Shown here piece by piece: positions 1,902 to 29,186 of a stretch of 64,000 bases of DNA. The position numbers and the translations under genes are program-made. Positions within the stretch are counted from its first letter, which is position 1; every line of letters begins with the position of its first letter. The stretch comes from a virus, in IMG/VR virus record IMGVR_UViG_3300045988_166613, positions 1-64,000 of that record, one strand, 5' to 3'. The notes under the pieces are model-generated. The model was not told the origin of the DNA, made no database searches, and saw nothing but the letters and a program-made list of their open reading frames with translations.

Positions 1902-3044
1902 TTAGAATTCCTCCTTTGTATTTATTTTATTTAATAGCATATCTTCTATATTGCTTTCAAAATAAGGTATTTCCAACAAATTTATATTATGAGTTTTACA
2001 ATAAGTTCTTTTAAAGCTATCGTTTTCTTTTTGTTTATTAAATTGCTCAATTCCACCAAAAATTTCAACTGGCTTATAATGTTGAACTCCTTGATACTCA
2101 ATGCATAAATTATAATCTTCTAAATAAAAATCAAATGGTAAAGGTTTACTTTTTCTACAATCATTAAATCTAAATTCTCTTTTATATTTTATTTTATGTC
2201 TATCTAGAATATTTTTTATAGTTTCTTCACCAATAGATTTTGTACATAATCCACAACCGTGTCCTTCTAATAAGTGACTTGCACGAATAGAAAAAATACT
2301 ATTACATTTGTTACAATATACTTTGATATGATCCCTACCTTTAATGTAATTAGATATAACTTTATATTTATCACCATGTATTTTATTTACTTTCTCTATA
2401 AATTCATCATGTGAATATCTAATTTTAGATAATTGTTTTTCTTTAGAACAATAAATGCAAGGATGTGATTTTGATATCATTCCACCCCAACTTTTATATT
2501 GAATACCCTCATCTCTATGTTTATTACATATAAAAGGTAATTTCTCTTCATTGTTGATGTATTTATTAGCTAAAATTTGAATATTATAATCTTTTAAAGC
2601 TTTTTCAATTATATCTTTAATCTTATTACATCTACTTTCCCTAAATGAAATTTTCTCACATTCTGGACAAAGAATTGAGCCATTTTTTATAACATTCCAG
2701 CTTCTTTGAAAAAATATATTATGTATCAAACACTCCCATTGCATTTTATATGTAGCATTTTGAGGATTTTTAGTTATTAACTTTAAAGGAATATTGTTCA
2801 ATTTTAAATAATTATTAATATTATTGTAAGTATAAATATTATGTTGAAAAAATATTGCAGGTTTAGTTTTTCTTCTATATAAAGTTGATAAATTTTGAAT
2901 ATTAAGAAAATACAAATATCCATTTTTATCTTGAAATGAAATCTTGTCAGATGTACTATATGTTTTAATCTTTGAAATATTATCTATACATTTTAATTCC
3001 AAATAATCTAAAAATTTATTTAACCTATCCATATTTAAAGCCAT
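1902..3044 (-). CDS. Zn-ribbon-repeat nuclease with PD-(D/E)XK/Vsr-like C-terminal domain (free-standing homing-endonuclease-like)
   Basis: Repeated Cys pairs (CPECEK, CIYCSKE, CNKCNS...CGLC) followed by PFDFYLEDYNLCIEYQGVQHY. Paralogous to 26884-28890 and 62980->64000. Confidence 0.6.
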   Translation of the reverse strand: MALNMDRLNKFLDYLELKCIDNISKIKTYSTSDKISFQDKNGYLYFLNIQNLSTLYRRKTKPAIFFQHNIYTYNNINNYLKLNNIPLKLITKNPQNATYKMQWECLIHNIFFQRSWNVIKNGSILCPECEKISFRESRCNKIKDIIEKALKDYNIQILANKYINNEEKLPFICNKHRDEGIQYKSWGGMISKSHPCIYCSKEKQLSKIRYSHDEFIEKVNKIHGDKYKVISNYIKGRDHIKVYCNKCNSIFSIRASHLLEGHGCGLCTKSIGEETIKNILDRHKIKYKREFRFNDCRKSKPLPFDFYLEDYNLCIEYQGVQHYKPVEIFGGIEQFNKQKENDSFKRTYCKTHNINLLEIPYFESNIEDMLLNKINTKEEF

Positions 3045-3080
3045 TAATCATCGCTTCCTTTCTAATAGTTTTTATATAAA

Positions 3081-3111
3081 TAAAAAAGAACCAAGAAATT
3101 AATCTTGATTC
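3081..3111 (-). terminator. rho-independent terminator after recombinase gene
   Basis: Minus sense: GAATCAAGA-TTAATT-TCTTGGTTC followed by TTTTTT. Confidence 0.6.
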
Positions 3112-7580: not shown

Positions 7581-7604
7581 TAAAAGGAGGATATTAAATC
7601 CTCC
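7581..7604 (-). terminator. rho-independent terminator after endolysin gene
   Basis: Minus sense: GGAGGAT-TTAAT-ATCCTCC followed by TTTT. Confidence 0.55.
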
Positions 7605-7609
7605 AATAT

Positions 7610-8404
7610 TTATTCCACTTCTACGTATTTAGCATCAACATATCCTCTTTTTTTGCCATGAGAAGTGTTGTATTCTATATAATACCACCCTGTTTCAGTC
7701 CATACTATAGTAATTTTTTCATTATTAAATACTTTTCCTATAATATTTCCATCAATATCATCTCTAACATTAAGATAACTATTAACTTTAACTATGCCCT
7801 GTTTAACTTTAGCCTCTTCATAGAATCTTTCTGATTGTTGTCCTTCATATCTAACATATCCATCTGTTGGAGTTCCGTCTTCTCTATAAAATGTTATACG
7901 CAACCATCCATTTTCTCTATACATAGGAGAAGCTTTTTTATTAGGTTTTAACACTTCATCATGTTCTGTTTTATTTACATTTTCTGAACTCCACCATACA
8001 TATGTATCTCCATCATCATTTTGATACTCCATATGATAATCAAAAGATATTCTATTATAATTCTCTATAGAAATATAAGCATGATATTTTTTATCTCCAC
8101 TAGGATAAATTACTTCTATAAATTTACTTGAAGGATATATTCCTAATACAAATATTTTATCTAAGCTAGAAATATATCTACCTTCTATTGGATTACATTT
8201 ATCATCTAATACTTGAATATTTCCTTCACCAACTATAGTTGCATTGGTTTTAGTTATATCACTTTCGTAAAAGCAATAAGGATTATCTTTTTTGATAGTT
8301 GTTATACTTGAAACTTTATTACCTTCTAATCTTGCTTTAAAGTCATACCATCTAGCCCAATTGTTAGGTGAAAAAGTTTGAGGACAGTTCTTTCTACTTG
8401 CATC
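7610..8404 (-). CDS. endolysin exon 2 (end of amidase_2 domain + SH3-like cell-wall-binding domain)
   Basis: Begins DASRKNCPQ, which continues the amidase motif interrupted at 9806. The C-terminus (GIVKVNSYLNVRDDIDGNIIGKV...GWYYIEY) looks SH3_3-like. Confidence 0.75.
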   Translation of the reverse strand, partial: DASRKNCPQTFSPNNWARWYDFKARLEGNKVSSITTIKKDNPYCFYESDITKTNATIVGEGNIQVLDDKCNPIEGRYISSLDKIFVLGIYPSSKFIEVIYPSGDKKYHAYISIENYNRISFDYHMEYQNDDGDTYVWWSSENVNKTEHDEVLKPNKKASPMYRENGWLRITFYREDGTPTDGYVRYEGQQSERFYEEAKVKQGIVKVNSYLNVRDDIDGNIIGKVFNNEKITIVWTETGWYYIEYNTSHGKKRGYVDAKYVEVE

Positions 8405-9805
8405 CGTTTTCTTCACAAGAAGTCGTTAATTTCTTGCAGTTCTCTTATGAACTTCTATAGCTTTCACTATAAGACGAGACTATATCATCATCTCATTTTG
8501 AGATGCCTTACGTTTCCATTTAAAAGGTCTTATTATCACCTAATTACGGCTTTGCCTTACCACTTGGCTGTACTCTACTCCCTTCCGTATTTCTACGTGG
8601 TTTCGATAGTCGTTGAGATTAATTATTGCTTATTTTTAATTTATTTTCTTTAAATTCATAATATTGTTTTGGTGTATTATTTCCAATTCCATATATACTA
8701 TGAAATTCTTTATGCAAATTTTCCGTTAAACACACACCTAATCCATATTTATTATGTAATTTATTACAAGTTTCTACTAATAAAAATAATTCTTCCTTAG
8801 TATATTCACCAATTTCTTTATAATCTAATTTCACTTCTTTTAATGTTTCCTTAACTATATCTGAAAAGTTATATAAATGATGGATAACTTGAAATCTTTC
8901 GCCTGTTATATCACATTTGTAATTACAAGCCTTCATACTAGCTCTTTTCCATTCATTTAAATGTCTACGTAAATATTCATGTAAAGGCGTAACTCCACCC
9001 TTCCAACAATAGTGATTTTCTAATTTAATAGTTTTGTTGCATTTTTTACAGTGAGGAGTTAATTGAAATGCAGATAAACTTTTATGATCTATTTCTCCGC
9101 ATTTACATCTAAATTTTAGTAAGCCTGCTCCATTTTTATAATCTACATAATTACTTAATAACTCACATCCATGTTTTTCAAAAACATTAACTATTTGTTC
9201 TTTTGTTATTCGCCTTTGTTTAACATTTTTCTCTATACCGCATTTTATACACCTGATATCTTTATTTATAAAATCACTTAATTTAACTTCAGATTTATTA
9301 CCACATTCACAAATATATTCTACCTTTGAAAAAACACCATTTTTTAATTCATTACTTAATAATTTGCAACCTCTCTCTTTAAAAATATTTTCAACATCTT
9401 CTATTTTATACTTTTTCCTTTTAGCAAAATTGATTTTGGTGCTATTTAACTCTAAATCACAAAATTTATATATATCAACAATTGACTTTATACCAAATTT
9501 TTTGAAGATATATTGAATAGACGGTAAATTATTAGAATTTTTAAAATCTCTAATATTTATCTTATTATTTTTGTTATAAAAATCTCTTACTTTTAAAATT
9601 AATTCTTCTTTTGATATTTCTTTTTGTTTTCCCATCTTATTTTCACCTCCATATATTATATATTATCACAAACAATAATTAATCTGCTGATTGTCCATTG
9701 TTACATCTTTAAAATTGTTACACTTTGGTACTTAAAGCTTTAGGAGTTTCCAGCATATATAAGGTTTTTCGATACGTATCGCTACGTAAAGCTACCATGT
9801 TATTA
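8405..9805 (-). mobile_element. group I-type intron in the endolysin gene, carrying a homing endonuclease ORF
   Basis: Stops in the exon frame. The 5' exon ends in U and the intron ends in G. GGTAG near the 5' end can pair with exon CTAT. GATGATATAGTCT resembles the conserved group I core element. Both non-ORF flanks are GC-richer and structured. Confidence 0.7.
8619..9635 (-). CDS. intron-encoded Zn-ribbon-repeat HNH homing endonuclease
   Basis: Repeated CxC/CxxC modules (CECGN, CIKCG, CKCGE, CKKCN) followed by the HNH-type motif QVIHHLY...NLHKEFH. GGAGGTGA RBS. Confidence 0.7.
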   Translation of the reverse strand: MGKQKEISKEELILKVRDFYNKNNKINIRDFKNSNNLPSIQYIFKKFGIKSIVDIYKFCDLELNSTKINFAKRKKYKIEDVENIFKERGCKLLSNELKNGVFSKVEYICECGNKSEVKLSDFINKDIRCIKCGIEKNVKQRRITKEQIVNVFEKHGCELLSNYVDYKNGAGLLKFRCKCGEIDHKSLSAFQLTPHCKKCNKTIKLENHYCWKGGVTPLHEYLRRHLNEWKRASMKACNYKCDITGERFQVIHHLYNFSDIVKETLKEVKLDYKEIGEYTKEELFLLVETCNKLHNKYGLGVCLTENLHKEFHSIYGIGNNTPKQYYEFKENKLKISNN

Positions 9806-10195
9806 ATAGTGCCTAACGACCTTACTATTAGGTATTCCATATTTCTCTTGAATATCTTTAACTAACCATAAAGTATTTTCGATAGTTTGTTCTGCTATAT
9901 CACCTTTAGTTTTGCACATCTCTATTCCTATACTATTTCTATTTCCTATACCATATCTATCATATCCATCACCGCAATGAAAAGCACTATCATGTTCTCT
10001 AACAACTTGAGTTATAGAATCTTCATCAACAAAATAATGAGCTGAAGCCCTTCTATGTCCTGTACAAAAATAATTTGCGTTACCTTCATCTGTATCATCA
10101 TAATTTCCTGTATCATGAATTACAATATATTCAGGATTGTTTGTACCTACCCAATGATCGTCATTATCAAATCTATATTTCATTTCTACTGACAT
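9806..10195 (-). CDS. endolysin exon 1 (N-acetylmuramoyl-L-alanine amidase, amidase_2/PGRP fold)
   Basis: IVIHDTGN...AHYFVD...GIEMC...VVRHY then an in-frame stop. Start ATG 10195, 9 nt after AAGGAG. Confidence 0.75.
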
Positions 10196-10225
10196 ATAAA
10201 ACATCTCCTTTTATTTTATTACATT

Positions 10226-10257
10226 AAAAAAGACTAAAGAAATTAATCCTTAGTCTT
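10226..10257 (-). terminator. rho-independent terminator after fibre gene
   Basis: Minus sense: AAGACTAAGG-ATTAATTT-CTTTAGTCTT followed by TTTTT. Confidence 0.6.
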
Positions 10258-17225: not shown

Positions 17226-17351
17226 TATTCCACCACCTTTCATATATTTTTGAGTATTTTTATAAAAACTCATGTTGTAAAACACTAGGTTTTTCGGCAT
17301 TTTATAACATCAATTTTTGGTTAAAAACACAATTTTAATTAATTTTTTACA

Positions 17352-17382
17352 ATAAAAAAGAACCTAGATTCAATCTAAGCTC
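17352..17382 (-). terminator. rho-independent terminator ending the HEPN moron
   Basis: Minus sense: GAGCTTAGATT/AATCTAGGTTC hairpin followed by TTTTTT. Confidence 0.55.
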
Positions 17383-17407
17383 TCTATGTTTAATTTCTAT
17401 AATAATG

Positions 17408-17788
17408 TCAATCTTCATGGGACTCCATTAATATAGCTTCTTCAATCATTAAATTTTGAAATATACAATCATATATATAAGAAATTCCACCTCTTACTTT
17501 CATACTACTATATATATTAATTAATAATGGATCTCTTGTATCAATAACATTAATTCTTGAGATTATTCTTCGTGCATCTATACTTATTCTTTCAAAAAAG
17601 TATCTTGCCAATAATGATATTGCATCATATTCATTTAAAAGATTTAAAAATGGACTTGAAATCATAAAGGTGTAGGTATCACATTCTTTATCTTTAAGAA
17701 ATATAGCCAAATTAACATTTCCATATTGTTCTATGTATTCATTCAAGCATTCTCTAATTTCTGTTACCAAGTTTTCTCTTTTATCCAA
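17408..17788 (-). CDS. hypothetical protein, partner of the HEPN-like gene
   Basis: 126 aa. TTG start 7 nt after AAAGGTGGTG. Overlaps the upstream gene by 25 nt. Confidence 0.55.
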   Translation of the reverse strand: MDKRENLVTEIRECLNEYIEQYGNVNLAIFLKDKECDTYTFMISSPFLNLLNEYDAISLLARYFFERISIDARRIISRINVIDTRDPLLINIYSSMKVRGGISYIYDCIFQNLMIEEAILMESHED

Positions 17789-18189
17789 GTATATACACCA
17801 CCTTTCTCATCTTCTAACGCTTTTATATGATTACTTGCACTCTCTTTACTAAAATAACCGACTGGTTTATATCTTAAATTAACATCCCATTTTGTTAATA
17901 ATGACCAATGTATGAAGAAATCCATATTGTTATTTAGTTCTTCATTTAAAAGGTTGTCAAGCTTGGCTAATTTAATAAGTTTCTGCATATCATGAGTTCT
18001 ATAATTTCTATTGTCATCTGGATATTCCTTTTTCTTCAGTGTATTACATACTGAAGCTTTTAATCCATATTCAACCACATAACCTGAATTTGCAACTACT
18101 TCATCAAATTCTGATATTTCATAAAATTTCTTAATTGATTCAAGCTTTCGTTTTGATTTTTCTTTTAATACTTTTTGTTTTATTGGCAT
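17764..18189 (-). CDS. HEPN-domain-like protein
   Basis: The pattern ...RTHDMQKLIKLAKL...WDVNLRYKP...SKESASNHIKALE resembles the classical HEPN family (THDL..L and ..RYP motifs). ATG 18189 after GGGAGGGA. Confidence 0.45.
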   Translation of the reverse strand: MPIKQKVLKEKSKRKLESIKKFYEISEFDEVVANSGYVVEYGLKASVCNTLKKKEYPDDNRNYRTHDMQKLIKLAKLDNLLNEELNNNMDFFIHWSLLTKWDVNLRYKPVGYFSKESASNHIKALEDEKGGVYTWIKEKTW

Positions 18190-18214
18190 AACAACCATCC
18201 CTCCCAATGGTTAT

Positions 18215-18223
18215 ATTATACCA
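18215..18223 (-). promoter_or_regulatory. extended -10 promoter element (TGGTATAAT) for the HEPN moron
   Basis: Minus sense: TGGTATAAT, 25 nt upstream of the start codon and downstream of a hairpin (AGTGGTGT/ACACCACT, 18266-18287) that follows the TMP stop. Confidence 0.45.
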
Positions 18224-18294
18224 TATATGTATAAAAATATTTAAATTAGAAAATATTATATTAAAGTGGTGTTATCGTACACCACTAAAACGTA

Positions 18295-21200
18295 TTAATA
18301 ACTATTAAGCTGTTCATTAATCTCATTAATAATTCTTCTATCTCTTTCATCTAGCATAGATTTGATATCCTCTGTTGTACCATTATTTACTGAACCAACA
18401 TTTAAATGTGTGTTGATGTTGATATTAGCTTTTTTACTACCTTGAGGTATTGCCATAAAAGAAGCAACCTTTGGAATAGCTTGTACAACATTATTACCAC
18501 TGTTATATCTAATATTAGAACTTGAAACGCCTAGATTATTATTAATAGATGTTAATTCACCATATAGTTTCTTAGTTAACTCAAGGTTATCTATGTATTC
18601 TTGCATTTTAAGACTACTATCTGCAAATACTTCTCCATTCTTCTTATAATAATCATTTAAAGCATCTCTAAGTTTTATAACGTGACCTTCTATTTCAATA
18701 AATCCTTTTTGAATCATACCTTTTGCTAATTCTGCTATTTTTTCATCAGTATAAGTTTTTTCCATTTCTTTAATTTTCTCATCCTTATGTTTATCTAATT
18801 TGTCCATTTGTTCATCAAAAGCTTTATTACCTTGATCTTTTTGTCTATCTCTAATGAAGTTATTTAATTCTTTTTCAAGGTCATCTTTTTGCTTTAACAA
18901 ATCTTTAAGTTTAGATTGTCCTTCAGATGAAATATCTCTTCTAACAGAATCTATTTGAGCATTAAGTTTATTTAACTTATCTTGCTTTTCTTTAAGGTTT
19001 TTCTCAAAGTTTTCATCGTCATATTTCTTGTTGTACTCATCTCTTTGTTTCTTTAATTCTTCTTTTATTTTAGAAGTTTCATCTTCTAAAGCTTTTTTAC
19101 GTTCTTCTACTTGATTTTTAACAACATTAGTCATTTCTCTTTCGGTATCACCCATTAACTTAACTTGTTTTTCAGAAACTTCTTTAATAGTTTTGGTTAG
19201 TGCATACCATTCATTATTAAGTTTAGGTAATTCTTTAGAAGTTATTTCAAAGTATTTATCAGCTTTTTCTTTTAAATCTTTGAAATTCTTAATTGCTTGT
19301 TCTTTAGCTTTATTGGAATTATCCATAGCGTTAACTTCATCTTCTATTTGTTTCAATCTATCATAGTAGTTAAATATATTACCATTAGAAGCATTAAAGC
19401 CATTGCTTTTTAAGACACCTTCTAAATATCTACCTTCATTTTGTTTAGCAGCTATTAAATTATTTATGGCATCTTTCTTTTGTTTATAAAGATTTATTTC
19501 TTTATTCATATATTGAAGCTTATTAACACCTTGAGCATTTTCTTCAAGAGTTTTGGTAATTTCTAATTCATTGTTAACATCATCTATAGCATCTGTAAGA
19601 GATTTGTAAGCATCGATTTTGTCTTCGATATCTTTGATATCTACATGTTCGCCATTTTTAGAACCTTTACCTCCATGTCCTTTACTACCACTGCCTTTGT
19701 GTCCATTAGCTTCTGGTGAATAGTCAACCTGTACTGGATTATTTGAAGGCAATATTGGATCAATACTATGTTCACTCCAAGCAGTCCATTGTACTCCATT
19801 CCATTTCCATTCTGCTCCTGGTGCTAATGGAACGTGTGGTTTTTGAGGTTTAAGACTATTAGGTAAACCATTTTCATCATAGCCTAATCCAACTGAAGCC
19901 ATAACTTCCTGAAGTTTTTTAGCAAGTTCATAGGCTGATAAAGCCTTAGTTTTACATGCGTTATCAAAATTCTTAACATCGGTTTTGTATGCTCCAGCCA
20001 TATTACCGACCATTTGACTATTAGCTCCTTGTATGGCGTTGGCACCATCTACTGCTGCTTTACTTTTGCTTGTAACTAAATTGGTGTGATTAGTATTATC
20101 AGTTTTGTAGTGTTCGGCTTTGTTGTTTGTTTCTTGTGAAGAAGCTTCGGTTCTAGCGGTTGCTCCATTTTGACCATTAGCTACCTTTGTGTTTTCACTA
20201 TCTGCATGAGCGTTAGTATCATTGGCATAGTTATTCATTTTAGCTTGTGTTTCTTGATTTGATAAACCAACACTATGATTCATAGCTTGTGTTTCAATTG
20301 CTTCTTTACTTGATAAATCACTTATCCCTTGTTGTAATAGATTTTGTGAATTTTGTATTGCTTGTCTATATGTAGCATCACTTTCAGTTCTTAATGTTTT
20401 TTCTAAAGCAATACTATTCTCCATGAATTTATTTTTATCAGCCAAAAGTGATATAACTCTAGTATCCCCAGAATTTAACATAGAACCTACTGTTTTTGCT
20501 GATAACGTTCCCGTTTTTTGGAATTCTGACATGGCTGATTGTACTAAGCCAATATTTCCAGTAAGTTTATTGAATTTTGAACCTAATTTATCTAATTCAT
20601 CTGCTGCTGATGTCGCACTTTCTTTAATTGCATCAAGTGGGTTAGTTAATCCTTCTAATGATGGTTTAGTGTTATCAGCGGTAGTTTGAGTTTGTTGAAG
20701 TGAATTATCAAATTCTCTAATTTTTTCAAAAACATCAACTCCACCAAACTGTGCTTTAATTTCAATATCTGACATTTTAGAAGCTTTCATATCAGCTACA
20801 GCTTGTTTAATACTTGTTATCGTTGCTAATTGTTCTTGAAGTTCTTTATTAACTTCTTGTGTATCAGCTTTTTTAATAGCGCTATTATGCCCAGTGCCCA
20901 TTAAAAGTAGTTTTTGAAACTTACTTAAACCAGTAGAATTAGACGAAGACATTTTTTGATAATTATTCTTATTTTCAAAATATTTATCAAAAACATCCAT
21001 GTGTTTACTGTTTTCTTGTGCTATTTTTTTAGCTGACTCTTCTCTTTCCTCTTTCTTTAATCTTATACTTTCTTCAATAAGAGCATTATTATTAGCAATC
21101 GCATTATTTTGAGAATCTAATCCATTTTTAGTTTGAGGCAATAGAGTTACCATCTCTGATTGAAGTTTATTTAATTCGGATTGCAATTCTATTTTTTCTT

Positions 21201-22272
21201 GTTCATTTTTTGTATTTGCTAACTGATTTTGTAATTCTTTTATTTTTGAGTATTTTTCTTCTGCTTTACTAATTGTTTCATTAGCTTGTTTTGAAGAATT
21301 AAAAAAGTCTGCATTTAATTGTTTTAACTCTTCTCTTGTTGTGTGAAGTTTATCGATAAAAGTCACTAATTTTTCAATTGCAAATGAAACAACCAGTCCA
21401 ACTCCAAACGAAATAGCTGCTTGAGCTGCTGTAGCTGCAACCCTTAATAATCCAAGTTCTACTTTTGTTGCAATTATACTCCCCTTTACTTTCCCCAAAT
21501 TAACTCCATAGGAAAGAGTAGCCTTATTTAGTCCTAACTGCGCATTTTTTGTTAATTTTATTTCTTTGATTAATTCTCTTTGTTCTTTTATCTTATTGTT
21601 TAATCCATATTGTTTACTAATAAATAATTCTTCAATTTTCCCAATGCCAAATAAATTTTTATCTATAGCCATTTTTCTAAATTGCGTATTTAAGGTTGTC
21701 ATACTGGCACTAGCCAATGATACAACGCTTGGAATCGCGCCAAATTCTTTAATTAATCCTCTTAAAGCACTAACTCCGCTATCTATCCCACTTATTATGC
21801 CTTTTAAAAAATCAGTATCAGATAAATCTAAAAATAACCCTTTTATATCTTCTTTTAAACTATTAATTTTAGCTGATAAAGAATTCATATAAGCTTCTTG
21901 TTCTTGTGCAGCACTTCCGAAGCTATTATCTGCTGTTTTTTTTATATTTTCTAAATCCTTTTTTGCATTTAACATCAAAGAGAAGAAAACGTTTGCATTT
22001 TGCTTCCCAGCAAATTTTTCGGCAATCATGGATTTTTGCATATTATTAAGATCATCCCAAACCATAGATAAATCTTTAATAACATCATATGTACTTCTAA
22101 ATTCTTCTTTACCCTCTTTAGTGACTTGGGTTAATTTAACACTTCCATGAGTTGTTTCATCTAACATTTTCTTTAATTTAGGAAATGTTTCTCCGCCTTT
22201 TTCTTTCATACCTCTCATGTTCATTGAGATTGTTTTTAATGCATTACCAACTTTAGCAGGCAGTATATTATC
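18295..22272 (-). CDS. tail tape measure protein, exon 2
   Basis: The frame stays open upstream of the annotated Met back to the intron 3' G (DNILPAKVGNALKTISMNMRG...). Long coiled-coil protein. Confidence 0.7.
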   Translation of the reverse strand, partial: DNILPAKVGNALKTISMNMRGMKEKGGETFPKLKKMLDETTHGSVKLTQVTKEGKEEFRSTYDVIKDLSMVWDDLNNMQKSMIAEKFAGKQNANVFFSLMLNAKKDLENIKKTADNSFGSAAQEQEAYMNSLSAKINSLKEDIKGLFLDLSDTDFLKGIISGIDSGVSALRGLIKEFGAIPSVVSLASASMTTLNTQFRKMAIDKNLFGIGKIEELFISKQYGLNNKIKEQRELIKEIKLTKNAQLGLNKATLSYGVNLGKVKGSIIATKVELGLLRVAATAAQAAISFGVGLVVSFAIEKLVTFIDKLHTTREELKQLNADFFNSSKQANETISKAEEKYSKIKELQNQLANTKNEQEKIELQSELNKLQSEMVTLLPQTKNGLDSQNNAIANNNALIEESIRLKKEEREESAKKIAQENSKHMDVFDKYFENKNNYQKMSSSNSTGLSKFQKLLLMGTGHNSAIKKADTQEVNKELQEQLATITSIKQAVADMKASKMSDIEIKAQFGGVDVFEKIREFDNSLQQTQTTADNTKPSLEGLTNPLDAIKESATSAADELDKLGSKFNKLTGNIGLVQSAMSEFQKTGTLSAKTVGSMLNSGDTRVISLLADKNKFMENSIALEKTLRTESDATYRQAIQNSQNLLQQGISDLSSKEAIETQAMNHSVGLSNQETQAKMNNYANDTNAHADSENTKVANGQNGATARTEASSQETNNKAEHYKTDNTNHTNLVTSKSKAAVDGANAIQGANSQMVGNMAGAYKTDVKNFDNACKTKALSAYELAKKLQEVMASVGLGYDENGLPNSLKPQKPHVPLAPGAEWKWNGVQWTAWSEHSIDPILPSNNPVQVDYSPEANGHKGSGSKGHGGKGSKNGEHVDIKDIEDKIDAYKSLTDAIDDVNNELEITKTLEENAQGVNKLQYMNKEINLYKQKKDAINNLIAAKQNEGRYLEGVLKSNGFNASNGNIFNYYDRLKQIEDEVNAMDNSNKAKEQAIKNFKDLKEKADKYFEITSKELPKLNNEWYALTKTIKEVSEKQVKLMGDTEREMTNVVKNQVEERKKALEDETSKIKEELKKQRDEYNKKYDDENFEKNLKEKQDKLNKLNAQIDSVRRDISSEGQSKLKDLLKQKDDLEKELNNFIRDRQKDQGNKAFDEQMDKLDKHKDEKIKEMEKTYTDEKIAELAKGMIQKGFIEIEGHVIKLRDALNDYYKKNGEVFADSSLKMQEYIDNLELTKKLYGELTSINNNLGVSSSNIRYNSGNNVVQAIPKVASFMAIPQGSKKANININTHLNVGSVNNGTTEDIKSMLDERDRRIINEINEQLNSY

Positions 22273-22628
22273 CTAAAGGCTTTTTATCCTCTAGTTCTAG
22301 GAGTTTCCTCCATTACATCATGTTGATTCATGATTAGCTTAGCATATATTTTCACCCTCGTTTAACGTTAGGCTAATTTAAACAATTAGGATATATCTTT
22401 AATATATCGTGGAGAACACTCTTGGAAAGATTATATTCTGTTATATTACATAACAGTTTCACCTTCTATGCGTTACAGTACAGTAGAATTTTACTTCTAT
22501 TGATTATGTCTCCATAATCTAGTTTTAAAACCTGTTACCTCGGTATTATCATATCTTTGTAGACTTAGATTTCACCGATTTTGCTCTCTTATAATATTAA
22601 GTATTTTCTACTTAACACGACCTTATTT
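22273..22628 (-). mobile_element. ORF-less group I-type intron in the tape measure gene (junctions within about 4 nt)
   Basis: Stops in all frames and GC-richer than the flanks. Ends in G. Shares a 52-nt block (one mismatch) and three further blocks with the TerL intron. Confidence 0.6.
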
Positions 22629-24272
22629 ATATTGATCTTGTATAGCTGAGTTGGCTGTTGTGATTAAAGCAATACTTTGACTTAAATCATTATTGGCTGT
22701 TGAGAGGGCGGATCCCCCTCGCATGATGGCAGAATTTAATCCGCCTACAGAAACGCTAAAATGATTACTGACGTTATTTAATTTATCAATAATATCCATA
22801 CTATCTTTAGCTTGGATATTGTATGCTTTCATTGTTGCAATTAAACCTTTGTTCGCACTCTCAGAATCAATATCACCGACATTAGAAAAAATTATAGAGT
22901 TTTGAGCTAGTTCTTTTGATTCTTGATAGCTATATGACATCTGTGCGAATGCAGCAGTTGCTTCAATTACATTTTTAGTTTGATTTCCCAATGCTTTTGC
23001 CATATCATTTGCTTGATTTTCAAAAGCCTCATATTCTTGAGAGACTTCATTTGTAACTTTTTTCAAGTCTCTCATTGAGTTATCAACTTCTACGATTGTA
23101 CTAAAACCTTCTTTTAAAACTCCAATGGAAGCTCCGATAATTGATCCTCCAATGAAATAATCCTTCATACGTGCAAATATATTACTAAATTGACTTGTTG
23201 TTACAAGTTCACGACTTTGTACTTTTAAATCATTAACATTTTTTTGTATTCTATTTCTCTCTACAGAGCCTAATATTTCATTCTGAGCTATTAACTGTTT
23301 ATATAGATTAATTTGTCTTTCGAGTTCATTGCTAATTCTTACTTGTTCACTACTTTTACCACCACGATTATCAACTCTCACCTTTAAATTCTCCAGTGTT
23401 CTTAATTGTGATGTTAAGAATCTAGCACTTCTATTAATTTCTGCACTTCTACTAGATTCTTTCTTTATACAAGCGTCTAACTTAACTAATTCTTGAGACA
23501 GTAAATTCTTTTCCTCTTGAGTTAACCTATTACTCTTAGCTTTAGCTTCATTAATTTTATTTTGAATGTTTTGTACAGATTCTAAATGTCCTGTATTATT
23601 ATAATTACTATTTTTAAGATGTTGAGTTTCACTTAATGCTTTTATTTTATTAAGTCTATTCTCTAATTGAATTAAAAATTGTTCTTGGCTTAAATTAGCC
23701 GACTCTAACTTTGATTTATTATTAACTATCTTTTTATCTACTAAATCAAATACACGAACTAACTCGCCTTCAACCTCTTTTACAGTCCATCCATATTTTT
23801 CTACAGCTTGTCTACCTTCATCATATTGATAAGTTAAAGTAGTGTTCTTAACATTACCTTTCTTATCCATTACAGTAGATAACTTTGCCATCTTACCATT
23901 TAATAATTGTATCTCATTTTCAAGACTTTTACTTTTCTTTAGTATATCTTCAAAGTCTCCAGAAACGCTTTTTAAATCACTCTTAACTTCAAGATTTATC
24001 TTTTCACCTTTGAGTGCTGAGTTAATTTGTTTTTGAATATCTTGTAAAGCTCCATTATTACCTAAACTAATTTTACTTATGTTTAAATCAATATTTTTGC
24101 TAAGTTGATTTATTTGTTTTTGTATTTGATTTGTAGCTTTATCAATATCTTTTAAAGATACTTTTTCTAATTCAACCCCTAAATTTTTACTTAAACTTTT
24201 AATATCTTTTTCAAGTTGTTGTAATACTTTATCTTTATTTAATTTCCCACCGAATGATAGATTTAAAGACAT
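22629..24272 (-). CDS. tail tape measure protein, exon 1
   Basis: About 548 codons of coiled coil ending ...NSAIQDQY(K). GGAAAGGAGG RBS. Confidence 0.7.
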
Positions 24273-26883: not shown

Positions 26884-28890
26884 TTATTTATTTTCTAATT
26901 TTTTAAGTTTCTCATCAATATTATATTTAATACGTTCTTCCGGTGTTAAATCTTCTACATATTTAAAAGTAAAACCTTTATGGTGTTTTTGTTTACCATT
27001 GCAAACATTAGATATACAAGCTGGTTGCAAAAATACATTAAATATTCTCTTACTATCTCGGCTTAAAGCATTACATCCTTCAAAAATTTGTCCGTTCTCT
27101 ATTGATAGTATTTTTTTCATTTTTGCTTTGCTACTTTTATCCTTTCCTATTTTTTTACTAATAGAAATATCGTAGTTACACCAACCAAGCCTTGTTCCTT
27201 GTTTTAAATACTTCACAATTGTATTTCTATTAATTTTTGTAATATTTTTTATTTCAAGAACATCTTTGGTTCGTGTATTATACATATAACAAATTTCTCT
27301 CGCTATATTTTTTATAGAACCTTTGTGACATGTTGTCCAATTTACATTACTTAAATCAAATAATTCAGCTAATTCTGAGTTTAATATACTGTTCTGAATC
27401 CATTCTAAATTTGATTCTCTGCAATCAAGCTCTATATAATGCTTTATATCATTTTTTAATGCTACTTCTTTTTTATACTTATCGTTAGCTTGTTCTTGTT
27501 TTAAATCTCTTCCTCCCGTAGACGAAAAATTAGATATATCTGAATAATGTTGTTTACCATTAACTTCTATTATCATATTAAACTTAGGGATATAAAAATC
27601 GTATCTTTTTGGTTTTATCCAACTTGGGGAATATTCTTTTTTGTATTTAATATTTAATTGTAATAATAGATTTATTATAAATTTCTCTGGATATGATAAA
27701 CCATCAGAGCAATATTTACAAACAAATCCTCTTCTTGTTAGATCACATATTTTTCTTTTTCTAATTTTATTGCAATCTGGGCATATTGTTTCTACCCTCT
27801 TGTTACTTCCCTGAGAATGCTTATAAGCATCTTCTTTATTAACAAAATACTTAACTAAATATGGATGTGTTGTTGCTATATCGTTTATACCAACTCTAAC
27901 TCTTTTACCAAAACAAATTGGACAATTACCATTTCTTAATATAACAGATGGCGTAGTTTCAAATTCGCAAAAATTACAATTTGAACTATTATGTCTTAAT
28001 AGAATTTTTTTATCAGCTCCTTCATATTTACTAAGTACATTAAATTCATTCGGATATAAAGTTTGTAATTCTGTTTCAAAAGTTTCTTGTTTTTTTATAA
28101 ATTTATTTTTAAGGAATAATTTGTTACAATGAGGACAAGAAGCTTTCTTTAATATTGTTGAAACTCCTATATAAAAAGATTTGCCACACTTATTATGTCT
28201 AATTAGCACCTTAGTTTTAGCATTAATATATTCCCCTAAAATTTCATATTCATTACCATATTTCTCTTTAATTTCATTAACAAATTCTTCGTGTGTTTTT
28301 TGTTGGTTGCCTGCACATAATGGACACCCAGCACCATGTAAAAGTGAAGCAGGTTTAACACTCCATTCATAGCCACATTTATTATGCCTTAGTTTAATTT
28401 TAATATCACCTTTTATATATGGTTCTAATGGTGTATATTCTTCACTATATTTTTCTTTTAATTCTCTTAAAAATTGCTCATTATTTTTAGTTATAGAATT
28501 AATGGCTTTTATTTTGTTACAAGATGGACATCCCCTTTTTATAAGTTGATTATAATATATATAAAATTCATTATTACATTTTTTATGTTTTATTTTTATT
28601 TTGCTTTTGCAACTTTCATATTCACTCAAAACAATATATTCATTTCCATATTTATCATAAAGTTCTTTTTTAATGTCTTTAGTCGTCTTTTTAATGTTCC
28701 CTGCACACTTCGGACACCCATTGTTTAACAAGCTATATGGAATCACACTCCATTCATATCCACAATCATTATGTTTAACTAGTATTTTAGTTTTATTGTT
28801 AATATATTTTTCTAACGGTATATAAACTCCATCCCCATGTACTTCGTTTAATTGTTTAATAAATTCCTCATGTGTCTTCTTTTTACCCAT
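26884..28890 (-). CDS. Zn-ribbon-repeat nuclease with PD-(D/E)XK/Vsr-like core and C-terminal DNA-binding module (homing-endonuclease-like)
   Basis: At least five repeats of the type C.YEW...P..LL.G.GCP.C, then RYDFYIPKFNMIIEVNGKQHY, then IENGQIFEG..ALSRD... Start ATG 28890 (MGKKKTHEEF) matches the paralogue at 62980. Confidence 0.65.
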   Translation of the reverse strand: MGKKKTHEEFIKQLNEVHGDGVYIPLEKYINNKTKILVKHNDCGYEWSVIPYSLLNNGCPKCAGNIKKTTKDIKKELYDKYGNEYIVLSEYESCKSKIKIKHKKCNNEFYIYYNQLIKRGCPSCNKIKAINSITKNNEQFLRELKEKYSEEYTPLEPYIKGDIKIKLRHNKCGYEWSVKPASLLHGAGCPLCAGNQQKTHEEFVNEIKEKYGNEYEILGEYINAKTKVLIRHNKCGKSFYIGVSTILKKASCPHCNKLFLKNKFIKKQETFETELQTLYPNEFNVLSKYEGADKKILLRHNSSNCNFCEFETTPSVILRNGNCPICFGKRVRVGINDIATTHPYLVKYFVNKEDAYKHSQGSNKRVETICPDCNKIRKRKICDLTRRGFVCKYCSDGLSYPEKFIINLLLQLNIKYKKEYSPSWIKPKRYDFYIPKFNMIIEVNGKQHYSDISNFSSTGGRDLKQEQANDKYKKEVALKNDIKHYIELDCRESNLEWIQNSILNSELAELFDLSNVNWTTCHKGSIKNIAREICYMYNTRTKDVLEIKNITKINRNTIVKYLKQGTRLGWCNYDISISKKIGKDKSSKAKMKKILSIENGQIFEGCNALSRDSKRIFNVFLQPACISNVCNGKQKHHKGFTFKYVEDLTPEERIKYNIDEKLKKLENK

Positions 28891-29186
28891 TACATTCTCA
28901 CCATCCACTCATTTATAAGCTCATCCTCAAACTCATCTCTAACCTTATGTCTTATCATAATTCCATCATTAACTTTTGCTATTGTTATGTATTCTTTCTC
29001 CGCTTCAGCATCTTCCATAATCCCTGACAGTAAACATCTAAAATCATATCCATTCATATGTTGTTTCAGATAAACTGATTCATTATCATAAACAAATCTC
29101 TCTAGGTTAAGTTCTTTATTTTTAGTCTTACTGAAAAATTCCTCTGGATCTATAAATATTTCATCGTAAATTTTAAAATTAATCAT
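28890..29186 (-). CDS. hypothetical protein
   Basis: 98 aa with GAGGTGA RBS. Its stop overlaps the next start (TAATG). Confidence 0.55.
   Translation of the reverse strand: MINFKIYDEIFIDPEEFFSKTKNKELNLERFVYDNESVYLKQHMNGYDFRCLLSGIMEDAEAEKEYITIAKVNDGIMIRHKVRDEFEDELINEWMVRM

What the first reader, a model, noticed from the sequence alone, without database searches (positions are those of the whole stretch)
7610..10195. Endolysin gene split by a ~1.4-kb group I-type intron carrying a Zn-ribbon/HNH endonuclease
ORF 9803-10204 is an amidase_2 N-terminal half that stops right after ...NSKVVRHY. ORF 7610-8416 continues with DASRKNCPQ.
- Joining at 9806|8404 recreates VVRHY-DASRKNCP. By analogy with T7-lysozyme-type amidases, this segment holds the second His and the Cys zinc ligands, so the insertion separates catalytic ligands.
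- The upstream exon ends in U and the insert ends in G.
- GGTAG, 10 nt into the insert, can pair with exon CTAT with a G.U at the junction (a P1-like pairing).
- GATGATATAGTCT resembles the conserved group I core element.
- The insert carries its own RBS-preceded HNH ORF (8619-9635).

Introns in lysin genes are known from other Firmicute phages. Here it is one of three introns in the same late region.
Basis: partly seen in the sequence, partly recalled or inferred. Interest (0 to 1): 0.7.

Follow-up and report, generated by a model that had tools for sequence, protein, structure and literature searches.

The report
Self-splicing intron inside a phage endolysin gene
The cell-wall-cutting enzyme gene of a roughly 150-kb Clostridium perfringens phage-like element is interrupted by a 1.4-kb mobile group I intron carrying its own DNA-cutting enzyme gene; this is a well-known kind of element that annotation pipelines miss here.

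Summary
An Amidase_2/SH3 endolysin gene on the minus strand is split into exon 1 (10195-9806) and exon 2 (8404-7610) by a 1401-nt insert (9805-8405).

- **One gene:** Joining the exons gives a 394-aa protein. Uninterrupted C. perfringens homologues match it end to end (90% identity) and read straight through the junction VVRHY|DASRKNCP.
- **Group I intron:** Rfam does not score the insert. Both of its non-coding ends are nonetheless homologous to phage group I introns that Rfam does score (Staphylococcus Twort-like phages, Bacillus PBS1, Acinetobacter). All helices P1-P9.2 can be written, including the P3 and P7 pseudoknot helices. On an 8-intron alignment, 83% of cells pair versus about 42% in slid controls, with 44 covarying pairs.
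- **Why Rfam misses it:** The 338-aa ORF sits in the P6 loop.
- **The ORF:** It is an intact, constrained homing-endonuclease-like protein (dN/dS 0.28). It has zinc-finger repeats and a C-terminal nuclease domain whose only solved structural match is phage T5 SciA.
- **Population evidence:** Five other contigs carry the same intron at the same site, and sister elements lack it.

Verdict: a new member of a known kind. Splicing has not been shown experimentally.

The parts
9806..10195 (-). Endolysin exon 1, 130 codons. It encodes the Amidase_2 catalytic domain up to ...VVRHY and includes the putative Zn ligands H27 and H129. The start ATG at 10195 lies 9 nt after AGGAG (10209-10205).
   Evidence: Pfam Amidase_2 E 4.7e-25, profile positions 3-119 of 131. 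PHROG 1794 match ends at profile 170. H27 and H129 are invariant. Alignment to PlyL, PDB 1YB0.
8405..9805 (-). Group I intron, 1401 nt. It begins with UAA, an in-frame stop for unspliced RNA, and ends with G8405 (the terminal G).
   Evidence: Homology of both non-coding ends to Rfam-validated phage group I introns. Structure counts. Absent from sister alleles L002, L016 and L017.
9792..9809 (-). P1. Exon CUAU (9809-9806) plus intron UA (9805-9804) pair with the internal guide UGGUAG (9797-9792). U9806.G9795 is the wobble pair at the 5' splice site. CAU (9799-9797) can pair with exon-2 AUG (8403-8401) as a weak 3-bp P10.
   Evidence: U.G at this pair in 5 of 8 aligned introns. All 4 compared intron-bearing alleles keep CACTAT, and all 3 intron-less alleles lack U at -1. 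P10 was read by eye.
9773..9788 (-). P2 hairpin UACGUA-GCGA-UACGUA. The GNRA loop is GUGA in sister alleles.
   Evidence: all 6 pairs show changes on both sides across introns..
9759..9764 (-). P3 5' strand CCUUAU. It pairs with 8511-8506 (GUAAGG) and is one half of the core pseudoknot.
   Evidence: helix 3: 89% of cells paired, 3 pairs with changes on both sides.
9685..9755 (-). P4-P5-P5a domain. P4 is UGCUGG (9755-9750) with UCAGCA (9690-9685). P5 is UCC (9745-9743) with GGA (9696-9694). P5a is 9737-9731 with 9713-9707. The domain contains the classical P and Q elements.
   Evidence: helices 4-6. 82-87% identity to PBS1, AR9 and Lak-phage introns. G.U to G-C change in P5a among sister alleles.
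9670..9684 (-). P6 5' strand. It pairs with 8631-8617, and the two arms bracket the endonuclease ORF.
   Evidence: Inverted repeat I12, 16 nt, 94% complementary..
8619..9635 (-). Homing-endonuclease-like ORF of 338 aa in the P6 loop. RBS GGAGGTG at 9650-9644. Its last codons and stop lie inside the P6 3' strand. It has two Cys4 zinc-ribbon repeats and a C-terminal nuclease domain with invariant H252, H253, H308 and H312.
   Evidence: PHROG 559 'HNH endonuclease' E 1.2e-7. Relatives carry CapR, DUF4379 and DUF723 domains. AlphaFold2 model pLDDT 89 for the whole protein and 94 for the C-terminal domain. PDB best match is T5 SciA endonuclease. BFVD matches to HNH and homing endonucleases. dN/dS 0.28.
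8617..8631 (-). P6 3' strand. It overlaps the end of the ORF.
8606..8611 (-). P7 5' strand GACUAU, within the R element UCAACGACUAUCG. It pairs with 8483-8478.
   Evidence: Five of the six pairs are invariant in all 8 introns. Unique in the window.
8512..8605 (-). Peripheral insert between P7 and P3', in the position of P7.1/P7.2. It includes the hairpin CGUA-GAAA-UACG (8597-8586).
   Evidence: Alignable to Staphylococcus Twort-like introns. Compensatory G-C to A-U change in the hairpin among sister alleles. The full pairing scheme of this region was not resolved.
8478..8511 (-). P3 3' strand (8511-8506), P8 hairpin (8505-8489), J8/7 (the single-stranded junction between P8 and P7), and P7 3' strand AUAGUC (8483-8478, the S element).
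   Evidence: P8 96% paired, with 6 of 7 pairs changed on both sides..
8405..8472 (-). P9 (8472-8455, GAAA loop), P9.1 (8453-8438), P9.2 (8436-8416, conserved loop UAACGA), and the 3' tail ending in G8405.
   Evidence: helices 11-13. The 3' terminal G aligns with the ends of homologous introns.
7610..8404 (-). Endolysin exon 2, 264 codons plus stop. It starts DASRKNCP with the putative Zn ligand C137, followed by a linker and the SH3_3 wall-binding region. There is no Shine-Dalgarno sequence before the GTG at 8416.
   Evidence: Pfam SH3_3. PHROG 1794 match from profile 172. C137 invariant. Sequence.
10230..10257 (-). Terminator-like hairpin upstream of the endolysin gene, at the end of the preceding gene.
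7586..7604 (-). Terminator-like hairpin just after exon 2. There is none on this strand between exon 1 and exon 2, which suggests a single transcription unit.

Best explanation
Bases 9805-8405 (minus strand) are a mobile group I intron of the phage IA type. It is inserted in the Amidase_2 catalytic domain of an endolysin gene, between codons Y130 and D131. That places it one codon after the second zinc-ligand His (H129) and six codons before the zinc-ligand Cys (C137).

**Inferred mechanism:**
1. The gene is transcribed as one unit, from the region of the ribosome-binding site near 10209 to the terminator at 7604-7586.
2. The intron RNA folds into the P1-P9.2 core, with the 1-kb endonuclease ORF looped out of P6.
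3. A free guanosine attacks after U9806, which forms a U.G wobble pair in P1.
4. The freed exon-1 3'-OH then attacks after the terminal G8405.
5. The product is mRNA reading ...CACUAU|GAUGCA..., encoding the 394-aa endolysin (amidase + linker + SH3).
6. Unspliced RNA can only give a 130-aa fragment lacking the Cys ligand, because the intron begins with UAA.

The intron ORF (own RBS) encodes a DNA endonuclease with zinc-finger DNA-binding repeats. It presumably cuts intron-less endolysin alleles during co-infection or recombination, so that repair copies the intron in (homing).

**Shown here:** gene continuity, ribozyme homology and covariation, selective constraint, and presence/absence polymorphism.
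**Inferred:** splicing itself, guanosine dependence, and the nuclease's activity and target.
For: **One gene, not two**
- Pfam and PHROG profile coordinates run continuously across the join.
- 394-aa uninterrupted homologues exist in sister ~150-kb C. perfringens contigs: P0001, 90% identity over 100% of the length.
- The motif (V)RHYDAS(R)K.CP is contiguous in 9 of 11 aligned homologues. H129 and C137 are invariant.
- Residue numbering matches PlyL (1YB0) H29/H129/C137.
- The sister locus L002 is 90-95% identical on both sides and simply lacks the insert.

**Group I ribozyme**
- The 3' 216 nt are 70-77% identical over 80-91% of their length to many phage group I introns, some annotated Intron_gpI.
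- The 5' P3-P6 region is 77-87% identical to introns of PBS1/AR9, Acinetobacter and Lak phages.
- Rfam RF00028 scores those ORF-less homologues at 68.6-106 bits.
- RNAalifold on the 8-intron alignment independently recovers P1 (with U.G), P2, P6, P7, P8, P9, P9.1 and P9.2.
- My named structure, including the P3 and P7 pseudoknot helices: 82.8% of cells paired versus 40-44% when slid, 44 pairs with double changes versus 12-22 when slid, and 0 of 500 shuffles as good.
- The ORF-deleted RNA folds with z = -4.57.

**Population evidence**
- The same intron sits at the same site in 5 other contigs, L011-L015.
- Ribozyme divergence is K = 0.03, while synonymous divergence is 0.3-0.5 in both the exons and the intron ORF.
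- Among sister alleles there is a compensatory G-C to A-U change in the P7.1 hairpin, plus U.G to C-G in P9, G.U to G-C in P5a, and GCGA/GUGA loops.
- Joined exons have dN/dS 0.08-0.16 and the intron ORF 0.18-0.38.
- All 4 compared intron-bearing alleles have CACUAU at the 5' splice site. All 3 intron-less alleles differ at -1 and -4; in L002 and L016 both changes are synonymous, and in L017 the change at -1 is part of a Tyr-to-Trp replacement.
- There is no terminator between the exons on this strand.

**Endonuclease:**
Against: - Rfam's group I model gives no hit here, even at E<=10.
- There are no RNA data, so splicing is inferred.
- P5 is only 3 bp and P10 only 3 bp with a mismatch at +1.
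- The region between P7 and P3' is not fully modelled.
- U9805.G9796 could extend P1, so the 5' splice site is fixed by reading frame and homology (HYD, not HYY) rather than by RNA structure alone.
- The nuclease domain matches no Pfam HNH model. Its only solved structural match has a Foldseek E-value of just 9e-3, although the probability is 1.00 and TM is 0.56-0.62.
Confidence: 0.9

Rival explanations
1. Two-gene or modular endolysin. Exon 1 (catalytic fragment) and exon 2 (wall-binding protein, starting at GTG 8416) are separate proteins that work apart or associate. A free-standing endonuclease gene has landed between them, and there is no splicing.
For: Gene callers and public records annotate exactly this: a 130-aa 'N-acetylmuramoyl-L-alanine amidase', a 337/338-aa 'hypothetical protein', and a 268-aa 'SH3 domain-containing protein'. 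Multimeric endolysins made of separate catalytic and binding chains are known in other phages (my own knowledge).
Against: - The exon-1 product would lack the invariant Cys ligand C137 and the last ~12 positions of the Amidase_2 profile.
- There is no Shine-Dalgarno sequence before GTG 8416, and callers choose different starts for exon 2 (268 versus 253 aa).
- The residues from GTG to the junction (MKKT) lie inside the conserved ribozyme 3' tail.
- The non-coding flanks of the middle ORF are a conserved group I ribozyme evolving about 10 times slower than synonymous sites.
Confidence: 0.04
2. Dead gene. The endolysin was inactivated by insertion of a group I intron that no longer splices (a decayed ribozyme), and lysis is provided by another enzyme.
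For: No Rfam hit. Sister elements carry alternative endolysins with an Amidase_3 catalytic domain on the same SH3 module (P0008-P0010 and others), so lysins are exchangeable in this lineage.
Against: - Both exons stay open and under purifying selection across four diverged intron-bearing alleles (dN/dS about 0.1, dS 0.3-0.5).
- The ribozyme is far more conserved than neutral sites and shows compensatory changes.
- All core helices are intact.
- The exon bases that form P1 are invariant in intron-bearing alleles.
Confidence: 0.05
3. A different kind of intervening element (group II intron, intein, IStron-type chimera or plain insertion sequence) rather than a group I intron.
For: Clostridia host IStrons, which are group I intron/IS chimeras (my own knowledge). 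The insert is large, at 1.4 kb.
Against: - There is no transposase, reverse transcriptase or intein motif. The only ORF is an endonuclease-like protein.
- The insert is not in frame with the host gene, since it begins with a stop codon, so it is not an intein.
- The core matches group I, not group II, and there was no other Rfam hit.
Confidence: 0.01

Closest known systems
Group I introns in endolysin genes of Staphylococcus Twort-like phages (K, G1, ISP, A5W)
   Same: A self-splicing group I intron interrupts a phage endolysin gene (reported in PMC5526547). From my own knowledge, the phage K lysin intron also carries an HNH-type endonuclease gene. The ribozyme 3' half of the present intron is about 70-74% identical to introns of this phage group.
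   Different: Different host (Clostridium perfringens). Different endolysin architecture (Amidase_2 + SH3_3) and insertion point (between Zn ligands H129 and C137). The endonuclease has zinc-finger repeats and a nuclease domain that no Pfam HNH model recognises. I did not compare the phage K lysin intron directly.
Lysin-gene group I intron of Streptococcus thermophilus phages (Foley, Bruttin and Brussow 2000, J Virol 74:611; cited in PMC5601072)
   Same: Group I intron in a phage lysin gene, polymorphic among related phages.
   Different: The paper was not available to read and no sequence comparison was done. Per its title, that intron occurs with deletion derivatives. All six copies seen here keep an intact ORF.
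Bacillus phage PBS1/AR9 RNA-polymerase beta-subunit introns (L008:1759-2078, Rfam 81.5 bits) and the Internexus intron (L005)
   Same: Closest whole-ribozyme relatives. P3-P6 is 82% identical, and P7 to P9.2 is alignable to the very 3' end. The Internexus copy also has an ORF whose end overlaps the start of the 3' ribozyme half.
   Different: Different host gene (RNA polymerase) and host genus. The PBS1 copy used here is ORF-less.
Staphylococcus phage 110 / Twort-type multi-intron virion gene introns (L003:2359-2658, L004:2369-2660)
   Same: Same layout after P7: a peripheral insert between P7 and P3', then P8, P9 with a GAAA loop, a P9.1 with an identical loop and stem, and a P9.2 with a UA(A/G)CGA loop. 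The literature places many of these phage introns in subgroup IA2 (PMC11878797).
   Different: These are ORF-less (about 300 nt). Their P4-P6 domain is not closely similar.
Phage T5 SciA endonuclease (PDB 9qgv, 9qgx)
   Same: The only solved structure resembling the C-terminal domain of the intron ORF: TM 0.56-0.62, probability 1.00, 20% identity.
   Different: SciA is a small (~120 aa) stand-alone protein. The intron protein has about 200 extra N-terminal residues with two Cys4 zinc-ribbon repeats. I could not confirm from the tools which nuclease superfamily SciA is assigned to.

Membership tests
Group I self-splicing intron | Conserved core of paired regions P3-P9, with the P3/P7 pseudoknot arrangement and the P4-P6 and P3-P9 domains | tested here: met
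   All helices can be written with standard pairs. On an 8-intron alignment, 82.8% of cells are paired versus 40-44% when slid, with 44 covarying pairs. P7 is invariant in 8 of 8 introns, and P3 is 89% paired with 3 covarying pairs.
Group I self-splicing intron | P1 helix formed by the 5' exon end and an internal guide sequence, with a U.G wobble at the splice site | tested here: met
   CUAU|UA pairs with UGGUAG, giving U9806.G9795. The U.G is present at the aligned pair in 5 of 8 introns. The exon bases are invariant in intron-bearing alleles and changed in intron-less ones.
Group I self-splicing intron | Terminal guanosine (omega G) as the last intron nucleotide | tested here: met
   G8405. 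It aligns with ...AACG| or ...AAUG| at the 3' ends of homologous introns and is conserved in all sister alleles.
Group I self-splicing intron | Score at or above the gathering threshold of the Rfam RF00028 covariance model | tested here: not met
   No hit at the gathering score or at E<=10. The 1,038 nt between the two arms of P6 explain this. ORF-less homologues score 68-106 bits, and ORF-containing homologues in L001 and L005 are also missed. The same limitation is described in PMC11878797. This is a detection criterion, not a biological defining feature.
Group I self-splicing intron | Guanosine-dependent self-splicing that yields ligated exons | not testable with these tools
   Needs an in-vitro transcription and splicing assay, or RT-PCR.
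Subgroup IA (IA2-like phage introns) | Extra paired elements (P7.1/P7.2) between P7 and the 3' strand of P3 | tested here: inconclusive
   A 94-nt insert at exactly this position (8605-8512) is alignable to Twort-type introns. It has one hairpin supported by a compensatory change. I could not resolve the full P7.1/P7.2 pairing, and no subgroup-specific models were available.
Homing endonuclease, HNH (beta-beta-alpha-metal) type | HNH / beta-beta-alpha-metal catalytic motif recognised by family models or by structure | tested here: inconclusive
   - No Pfam HNH hit for this protein. HNH_2 is hit weakly by 2 of 44 relatives.
- PHROG 559 'HNH endonuclease' E 1.2e-7.
- H252, H253, H308 and H312 are invariant.
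- BFVD match to an 'HNH nuclease domain-containing protein' at 6e-14.
- The PDB best match is T5 SciA endonuclease, with weak Cas5-HNH hits.
Homing endonuclease, HNH (beta-beta-alpha-metal) type | Encoded inside a mobile intron that is polymorphic among related genomes, with the ORF intact and under constraint | tested here: met
   The ORF sits in the P6 loop with its own RBS. Six intron-bearing and many intron-less alleles occur in sister elements. dN/dS 0.18-0.38.
Homing endonuclease, HNH (beta-beta-alpha-metal) type | Cleaves or nicks the intron-less allele near the insertion site | not testable with these tools
   Needs a cleavage assay on the L016/L002-type target and on the joined-exon sequence.
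Amidase_2 (T7-lysozyme/PGRP-type N-acetylmuramoyl-L-alanine amidase) endolysin | Amidase_2 fold with a His/His/Cys zinc site | tested here: met
   Pfam PF01510 E 4.7e-25. PDB sequence matches to XlyA (3HMB) and PlyL (1YB0) at E about 1e-15. H27, H129 and C137 align with PlyL H29, H129 and C137 and are invariant. That these are the Zn ligands rests on my own knowledge of PlyL and T7 lysozyme.

The most novel reading that the evidence does not exclude
The intron and its endonuclease may be in an ongoing arms race with the endolysin active site in a family of ~150-kb C. perfringens phage-like elements.

- In a set of >=86%-identical alleles, amino-acid diversity within the catalytic domain peaks in the 20 residues around the insertion site. 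The variants are HYDAS, HWDCS, HWHCS and HYDVS, lying between two zinc ligands.
- The closest intron-less allele differs from the intron-bearing one at the splice site only by synonymous changes at -1 and -4. These changes remove the U.G pair of P1 and could also block nuclease recognition.
- In addition, the endonuclease may represent an undescribed family: CapR/treble-clef zinc-finger repeats fused to a SciA-like nuclease domain that no Pfam model recognises.
Probability: 0.3. Interest if true: 0.45.

Novelty: new member of a known kind. Interest (0 to 1): 0.3.

Why it matters
**Practical value.** Public records annotate this endolysin as three unrelated genes: a 130-aa amidase, a hypothetical protein, and a 268-aa SH3 protein. 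C. perfringens endolysins are mined as antimicrobials. Anyone cloning either fragment would get an inactive enzyme, whereas the correct product is the 394-aa spliced form.

**Method lesson.** The standard covariance-model screen (Rfam RF00028) misses group I introns whose ribozyme is split by a nuclease gene. Homology of each half to ORF-less introns, plus pair counting, recovers them.

**Biology.** This adds a clostridial example to the short list of introns in lysis genes. It also offers a natural set of intron-bearing and intron-less alleles for studying homing and target-site escape. It does not change what is known about group I introns.

Tried and rejected
- **Rfam on the window:** The whole window at gathering thresholds gave only a tRNA. 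The insert at E<=10 gave only chance-level hits to unrelated families.
- **Near-identity DNA searches:** In the phage collection the locus gave only a 63-nt match to a Vibrio phage, which turned out to be the P7 region of another unannotated ORF-containing intron. Searching 20 kb of the window gave no related phage record. The plasmid collection gave no match. The element is therefore known only from draft assemblies and metagenomes.
- **IMG/VR scan:** An exact-pattern scan for the P3'-P8 sequence found nothing.
- **Endonuclease versus PDB by sequence:** No meaningful hit for the single protein or the profile, only zinc-ribbon noise.
- **Endonuclease versus Pfam:** Nothing significant, even at E<=10.
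- **Literature:** A search for T5 SciA was swamped by the journal abbreviation 'sciadv'. The Foley et al. 2000 paper was not held.
- **Covariance model across the ORF:** Considered but not attempted, because I judged that a 1-kb insertion in a hairpin loop would exceed the hit length a covariance-model search allows.
- **Alternative splice register:** The register 9805|8403 would give HYY. It was rejected because no homologue has it and HYD is the conserved motif.
- **Other element types:** Intein, group II intron and IStron readings were rejected (see rival explanations).


Full report
**1. What is in the sequence**

On the minus strand there are three consecutive ORFs: 10204..9803 (133 aa), 9635..8619 (338 aa) and 8416..7610 (268 aa).
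- The first ORF is an Amidase_2 domain that covers profile positions 3-119 of 131. It stops with TAA straight after ...VVRHY.
- The third ORF carries an SH3_3 domain.
- PHROG 1794 (amidase) matches the first ORF up to profile position 170 and the third from position 172. The two are therefore adjacent pieces of one family profile.
- Joining 9806 to 8404 keeps the frame. It gives 394 aa from the ATG at 10195, which has an AGGAG 9 nt upstream.
- Terminator-like hairpins lie before the first ORF (10257-10230) and just after the third (7604-7586). None lies between them on this strand.

**2. It is one gene**

A search with the joined protein found 2,130 relatives.
- The best is a 394-aa C. perfringens protein, 90% identical over 100% of the length. 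Many other uninterrupted 385-397-aa Amidase_2+SH3 proteins were also found.
- In an alignment of 12 sequences the junction region reads straight through. VVRHYDASRKNCP is identical in several proteins that are only about 55% identical overall, and H27, H129 and C137 are invariant.
- Against solved structures the catalytic domain matches XlyA (3HMB) and PlyL (1YB0). Query H27/H129/C137 fall on PlyL H29/H129/C137. From my own knowledge of PlyL and T7 lysozyme, these are the zinc ligands.
- The insert therefore lies one codon after the second His ligand and six codons before the Cys ligand.
- A sister locus from a 158-kb C. perfringens contig (L002) is 88-95% identical to the window on both sides and simply lacks the 1.4-kb insert.

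**3. The insert is a group I intron**

Rfam gave no Intron_gpI hit, either at gathering thresholds over the whole window or at E<=10 on the insert.

*(a) Homology.*
- The 3' non-coding 216 nt are 70-77% identical over 80-91% of their length to many phage introns. These include introns of Staphylococcus Twort-like phages (some annotated Intron_gpI) and of the Bacillus AR9/PBS1/Internexus RNA polymerase genes. The best E-value is 2e-27.
- The 5' part is 77-87% identical to introns of PBS1/AR9, Acinetobacter phages and Lak phages.
- Rfam RF00028 scores the ORF-less members of this set at 68.6-106 bits.
- It misses the ORF-containing members in L001 and L005.
- A 2025 survey reports the same behaviour when a homing-nuclease loop splits the ribozyme (PMC11878797).

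*(b) Anatomy.*
- The four classical core elements are present: P (UAUGCUGGAAAC), Q (AAUCAGCAG), R (UCAACGACUAUCG) and S (GAUGAUAUAGUCU).
- The R core and the S core are each unique in the 64-kb window.
- A 16-nt inverted repeat (9685-9670 with 8631-8616) brackets the ORF and forms P6. The ORF is therefore a loop-out of P6, and its last codons lie inside the 3' strand.

*(c) Structure.*
- I replaced the ORF with a tetraloop and aligned the RNA with seven Rfam-validated introns.
- RNAalifold independently returned P1 (with a U.G at the 5' splice site in 5 of 8 introns), P2, P6, P7, P8, P9, P9.1 and P9.2. Of its predicted pairs, 33 of 46 show compensatory changes.
- I then wrote the full structure, including the P3 and P7 pseudoknot helices plus P4, P5 and P5a, and counted pairs on the alignment:

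| Measure | Named structure | Controls |
|---|---|---|
| Cells that form standard pairs | 82.8% | 40-44% (3' partners slid 1-3 columns) |
| Pairs with changes on both sides | 44 | 12-22 (slid) |
| Shuffles reaching the observed values | 0 of 500 | n/a |

- The ORF-deleted RNA folds with z = -4.57.

*(d) Splice sites.*
- The exon ends in U9806, which pairs with G9795 of the internal guide.
- The intron ends in G8405, which aligns with the terminal G of the homologues.
- A one-base-shifted register is possible on RNA grounds. It would give HYY, which no homologue has.

**4. Population evidence**

The intron ORF has close relatives (98, 82, 79 and 75% identity). All those looked up lie in the same arrangement: a 130-aa Amidase_2 ORF, a 337-aa ORF, then a 268-aa SH3 ORF. 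They come from five further contigs from C. perfringens assemblies and metagenomes.
- **Ribozyme conservation.** Across these copies the ribozyme segments stay 96-99% identical in the parts outside the P6 loop, while the ORF drops to 83-85%. Ribozyme divergence is K = 0.03, against dS of 0.3-0.5 for the exons and 0.39-0.50 for the ORF between the two allele groups (win/L011 versus L013/L015).
- **Structure-preserving changes.** The few ribozyme differences preserve pairing:
  - CGUA/UACG becomes CAUA/UAUG in the hairpin after P7.
  - U.G becomes C-G in P9.
  - G.U becomes G-C in P5a.
  - The P2 loop changes from GCGA to GUGA.
- **Selection.** The joined endolysin has dN/dS 0.08-0.16, so the split gene is still under purifying selection. 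The intron ORF has dN/dS 0.18-0.38.
- **Public annotation.** The three ORFs are recorded separately as an amidase, a hypothetical protein and an SH3-domain protein. The window's own proteins come from a contig of about 151.8 kb.

**5. The intron protein**

- It matches no Pfam family, and a sequence search of the PDB gave nothing useful.
- PHROG 559 'HNH endonuclease' matches at E 1.2e-7.
- Relatives carry CapR, DUF4379 (treble-clef zinc finger) and DUF723 domains. These correspond to the two Cys4 repeats seen here.
- H252, H253, H308 and H312 are invariant in 44 relatives.
- AlphaFold2 models are confident: pLDDT 89 for the whole protein and 94 for the C-terminal 134 residues.
- The only convincing solved match of the C-terminal domain is the phage T5 SciA endonuclease (TM 0.56-0.62, probability 1.00), with weak Cas5-HNH hits.
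- Among predicted viral structures, the best named matches are an HNH nuclease domain protein of a Staphylococcus phage (6e-14) and homing endonucleases of Bacillus phages.
- I conclude it is a homing-endonuclease-like protein with zinc-finger DNA-binding repeats. 'HNH' is likely but not established.

**6. The insertion site in intron-less alleles**

- **DNA identity.** Identity between the window's joined exons and the intron-less L002 allele is 90-100% over most of the first 650 nt. It falls to 53-57% in the roughly 60 nt centred on the insertion site. A second dip to 60-63% occurs about 90 nt downstream, in the linker.
- **Amino-acid diversity.** Among 17 alleles that are >=86% identical overall, diversity within the catalytic domain peaks at residues 122-141.
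- **Closest intron-less allele.** L016 differs from the window at only 6 of 90 nt around the site. It reads CATTAC|GATG where all four compared intron-bearing alleles read CACTAT|GATG. These are synonymous changes at -4 and -1 that remove the U of the U.G pair.
- **Interpretation.** This fits the constraint on P1 in intron-bearing alleles plus co-conversion. It also fits selection for nuclease-resistant sites in intron-less alleles. I cannot tell these apart.

**7. Comparison with what is known**

- Group I introns with nuclease ORFs are common in phages of Firmicutes.
- Introns in lysin genes are reported for Staphylococcus phages K, G1, ISP and A5W (PMC5526547).
- They are also reported for Streptococcus thermophilus phages (Foley et al. 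2000, cited in PMC5601072).
- I found no paper that describes one in a C. perfringens endolysin gene.
- This is therefore a new member of a known kind. It does not change the picture of group I introns. Its value is in correcting annotation and as a clean intron-bearing/intron-less population.

**8. Verdict**

Confidence that this is a group I intron with a homing-endonuclease-like ORF splitting a single endolysin gene is about 0.9. Splicing and nuclease activity remain inferred.

Noticed in passing
window 22235-22622 (- strand), between ORFs 24272..22623 and 22224..18295: The tail tape-measure gene is split by an ORF-less insert of about 390 nt. The two ORFs (549 aa and 1309 aa) match consecutive parts of PHROG 4211 (profile 459-764, then 800-1732). 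The genome that L002 was taken from has an uninterrupted 1864-aa tape-measure protein. Rfam gives no hit even at E<=1. Parts of the insert are 82% identical to the site annotated 'tape measure protein | Intron_gpI' in Clostridium phage phiCD211. This is probably a second group I intron.
   Followed up: partly
window 26884-28908 (- strand): A 674-aa ORF strongly matches PHROG 559 'HNH endonuclease' (E 3e-88). It also has DUF4379 treble-clef and I-HmuI NUMOD-like hits. It shares only zinc-ribbon-repeat similarity with the endolysin-intron ORF. I did not determine whether it sits in a third intron or is free-standing.
   Followed up: partly
window 17345-18263: An insertion of about 918 nt relative to sister locus L002, in the gap between the tape-measure stop codon and the next tail gene. 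It holds two small ORFs: 17788..17408 (126 aa, no hit) and 18207..17764 (147 aa, PHROG 5737, unknown function).
   Followed up: no
joined endolysin codons 122-141 (window 9832-9806 and 8404-8372); loci L002, L016, L017: There is local hypervariability at the intron insertion site among otherwise near-identical alleles. DNA identity to L002 drops to 53-57% in about 60 nt around the site, and amino-acid diversity peaks there within the catalytic domain. All three intron-less alleles lack the U at -1 that the intron needs for its U.G pair. In the closest one (L016) the only nearby changes are synonymous, at -4 and -1. Possible causes are co-conversion or target-site escape.
   Followed up: partly
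proteins P0008-P0010, P0014, P0019, P0020 and others: Sister ~145-158-kb contigs encode 419-422-aa endolysins with an Amidase_3 (PF01520) catalytic domain. Their C-terminal part is 83-92% identical to the C-terminal 56-61% of this endolysin. The catalytic domain has therefore been swapped on a shared wall-binding module within this lineage.
   Followed up: no
locus L001 (Vibrio phage 1.084.O, MG592459.1) about 2332-3110; locus L005 (Bacillus phage Internexus) 1393-2711: Other phage genomes have the same layout: a nuclease ORF whose end runs into a P7-P9 ribozyme half that is homologous to this intron. These are annotated only as 'HNH nuclease' or 'hypothetical protein', and Rfam misses them. 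Such ORF-split introns seem to be under-annotated in general.
   Followed up: partly
window 49729-49795 (- strand): A tRNA gene, the only Rfam hit in the window at gathering score (53.6 bits).
   Followed up: no
whole window: The element is absent from the phage (INPHARED 2025) and plasmid (PLSDB 2024) collections at megablast level. It recurs as 147-160-kb contigs in C. perfringens assemblies and metagenomes. L002 shows two integrase-family genes near the lysis module. This may be a large phage or phage-plasmid lineage that is poorly represented in curated collections.
   Followed up: no
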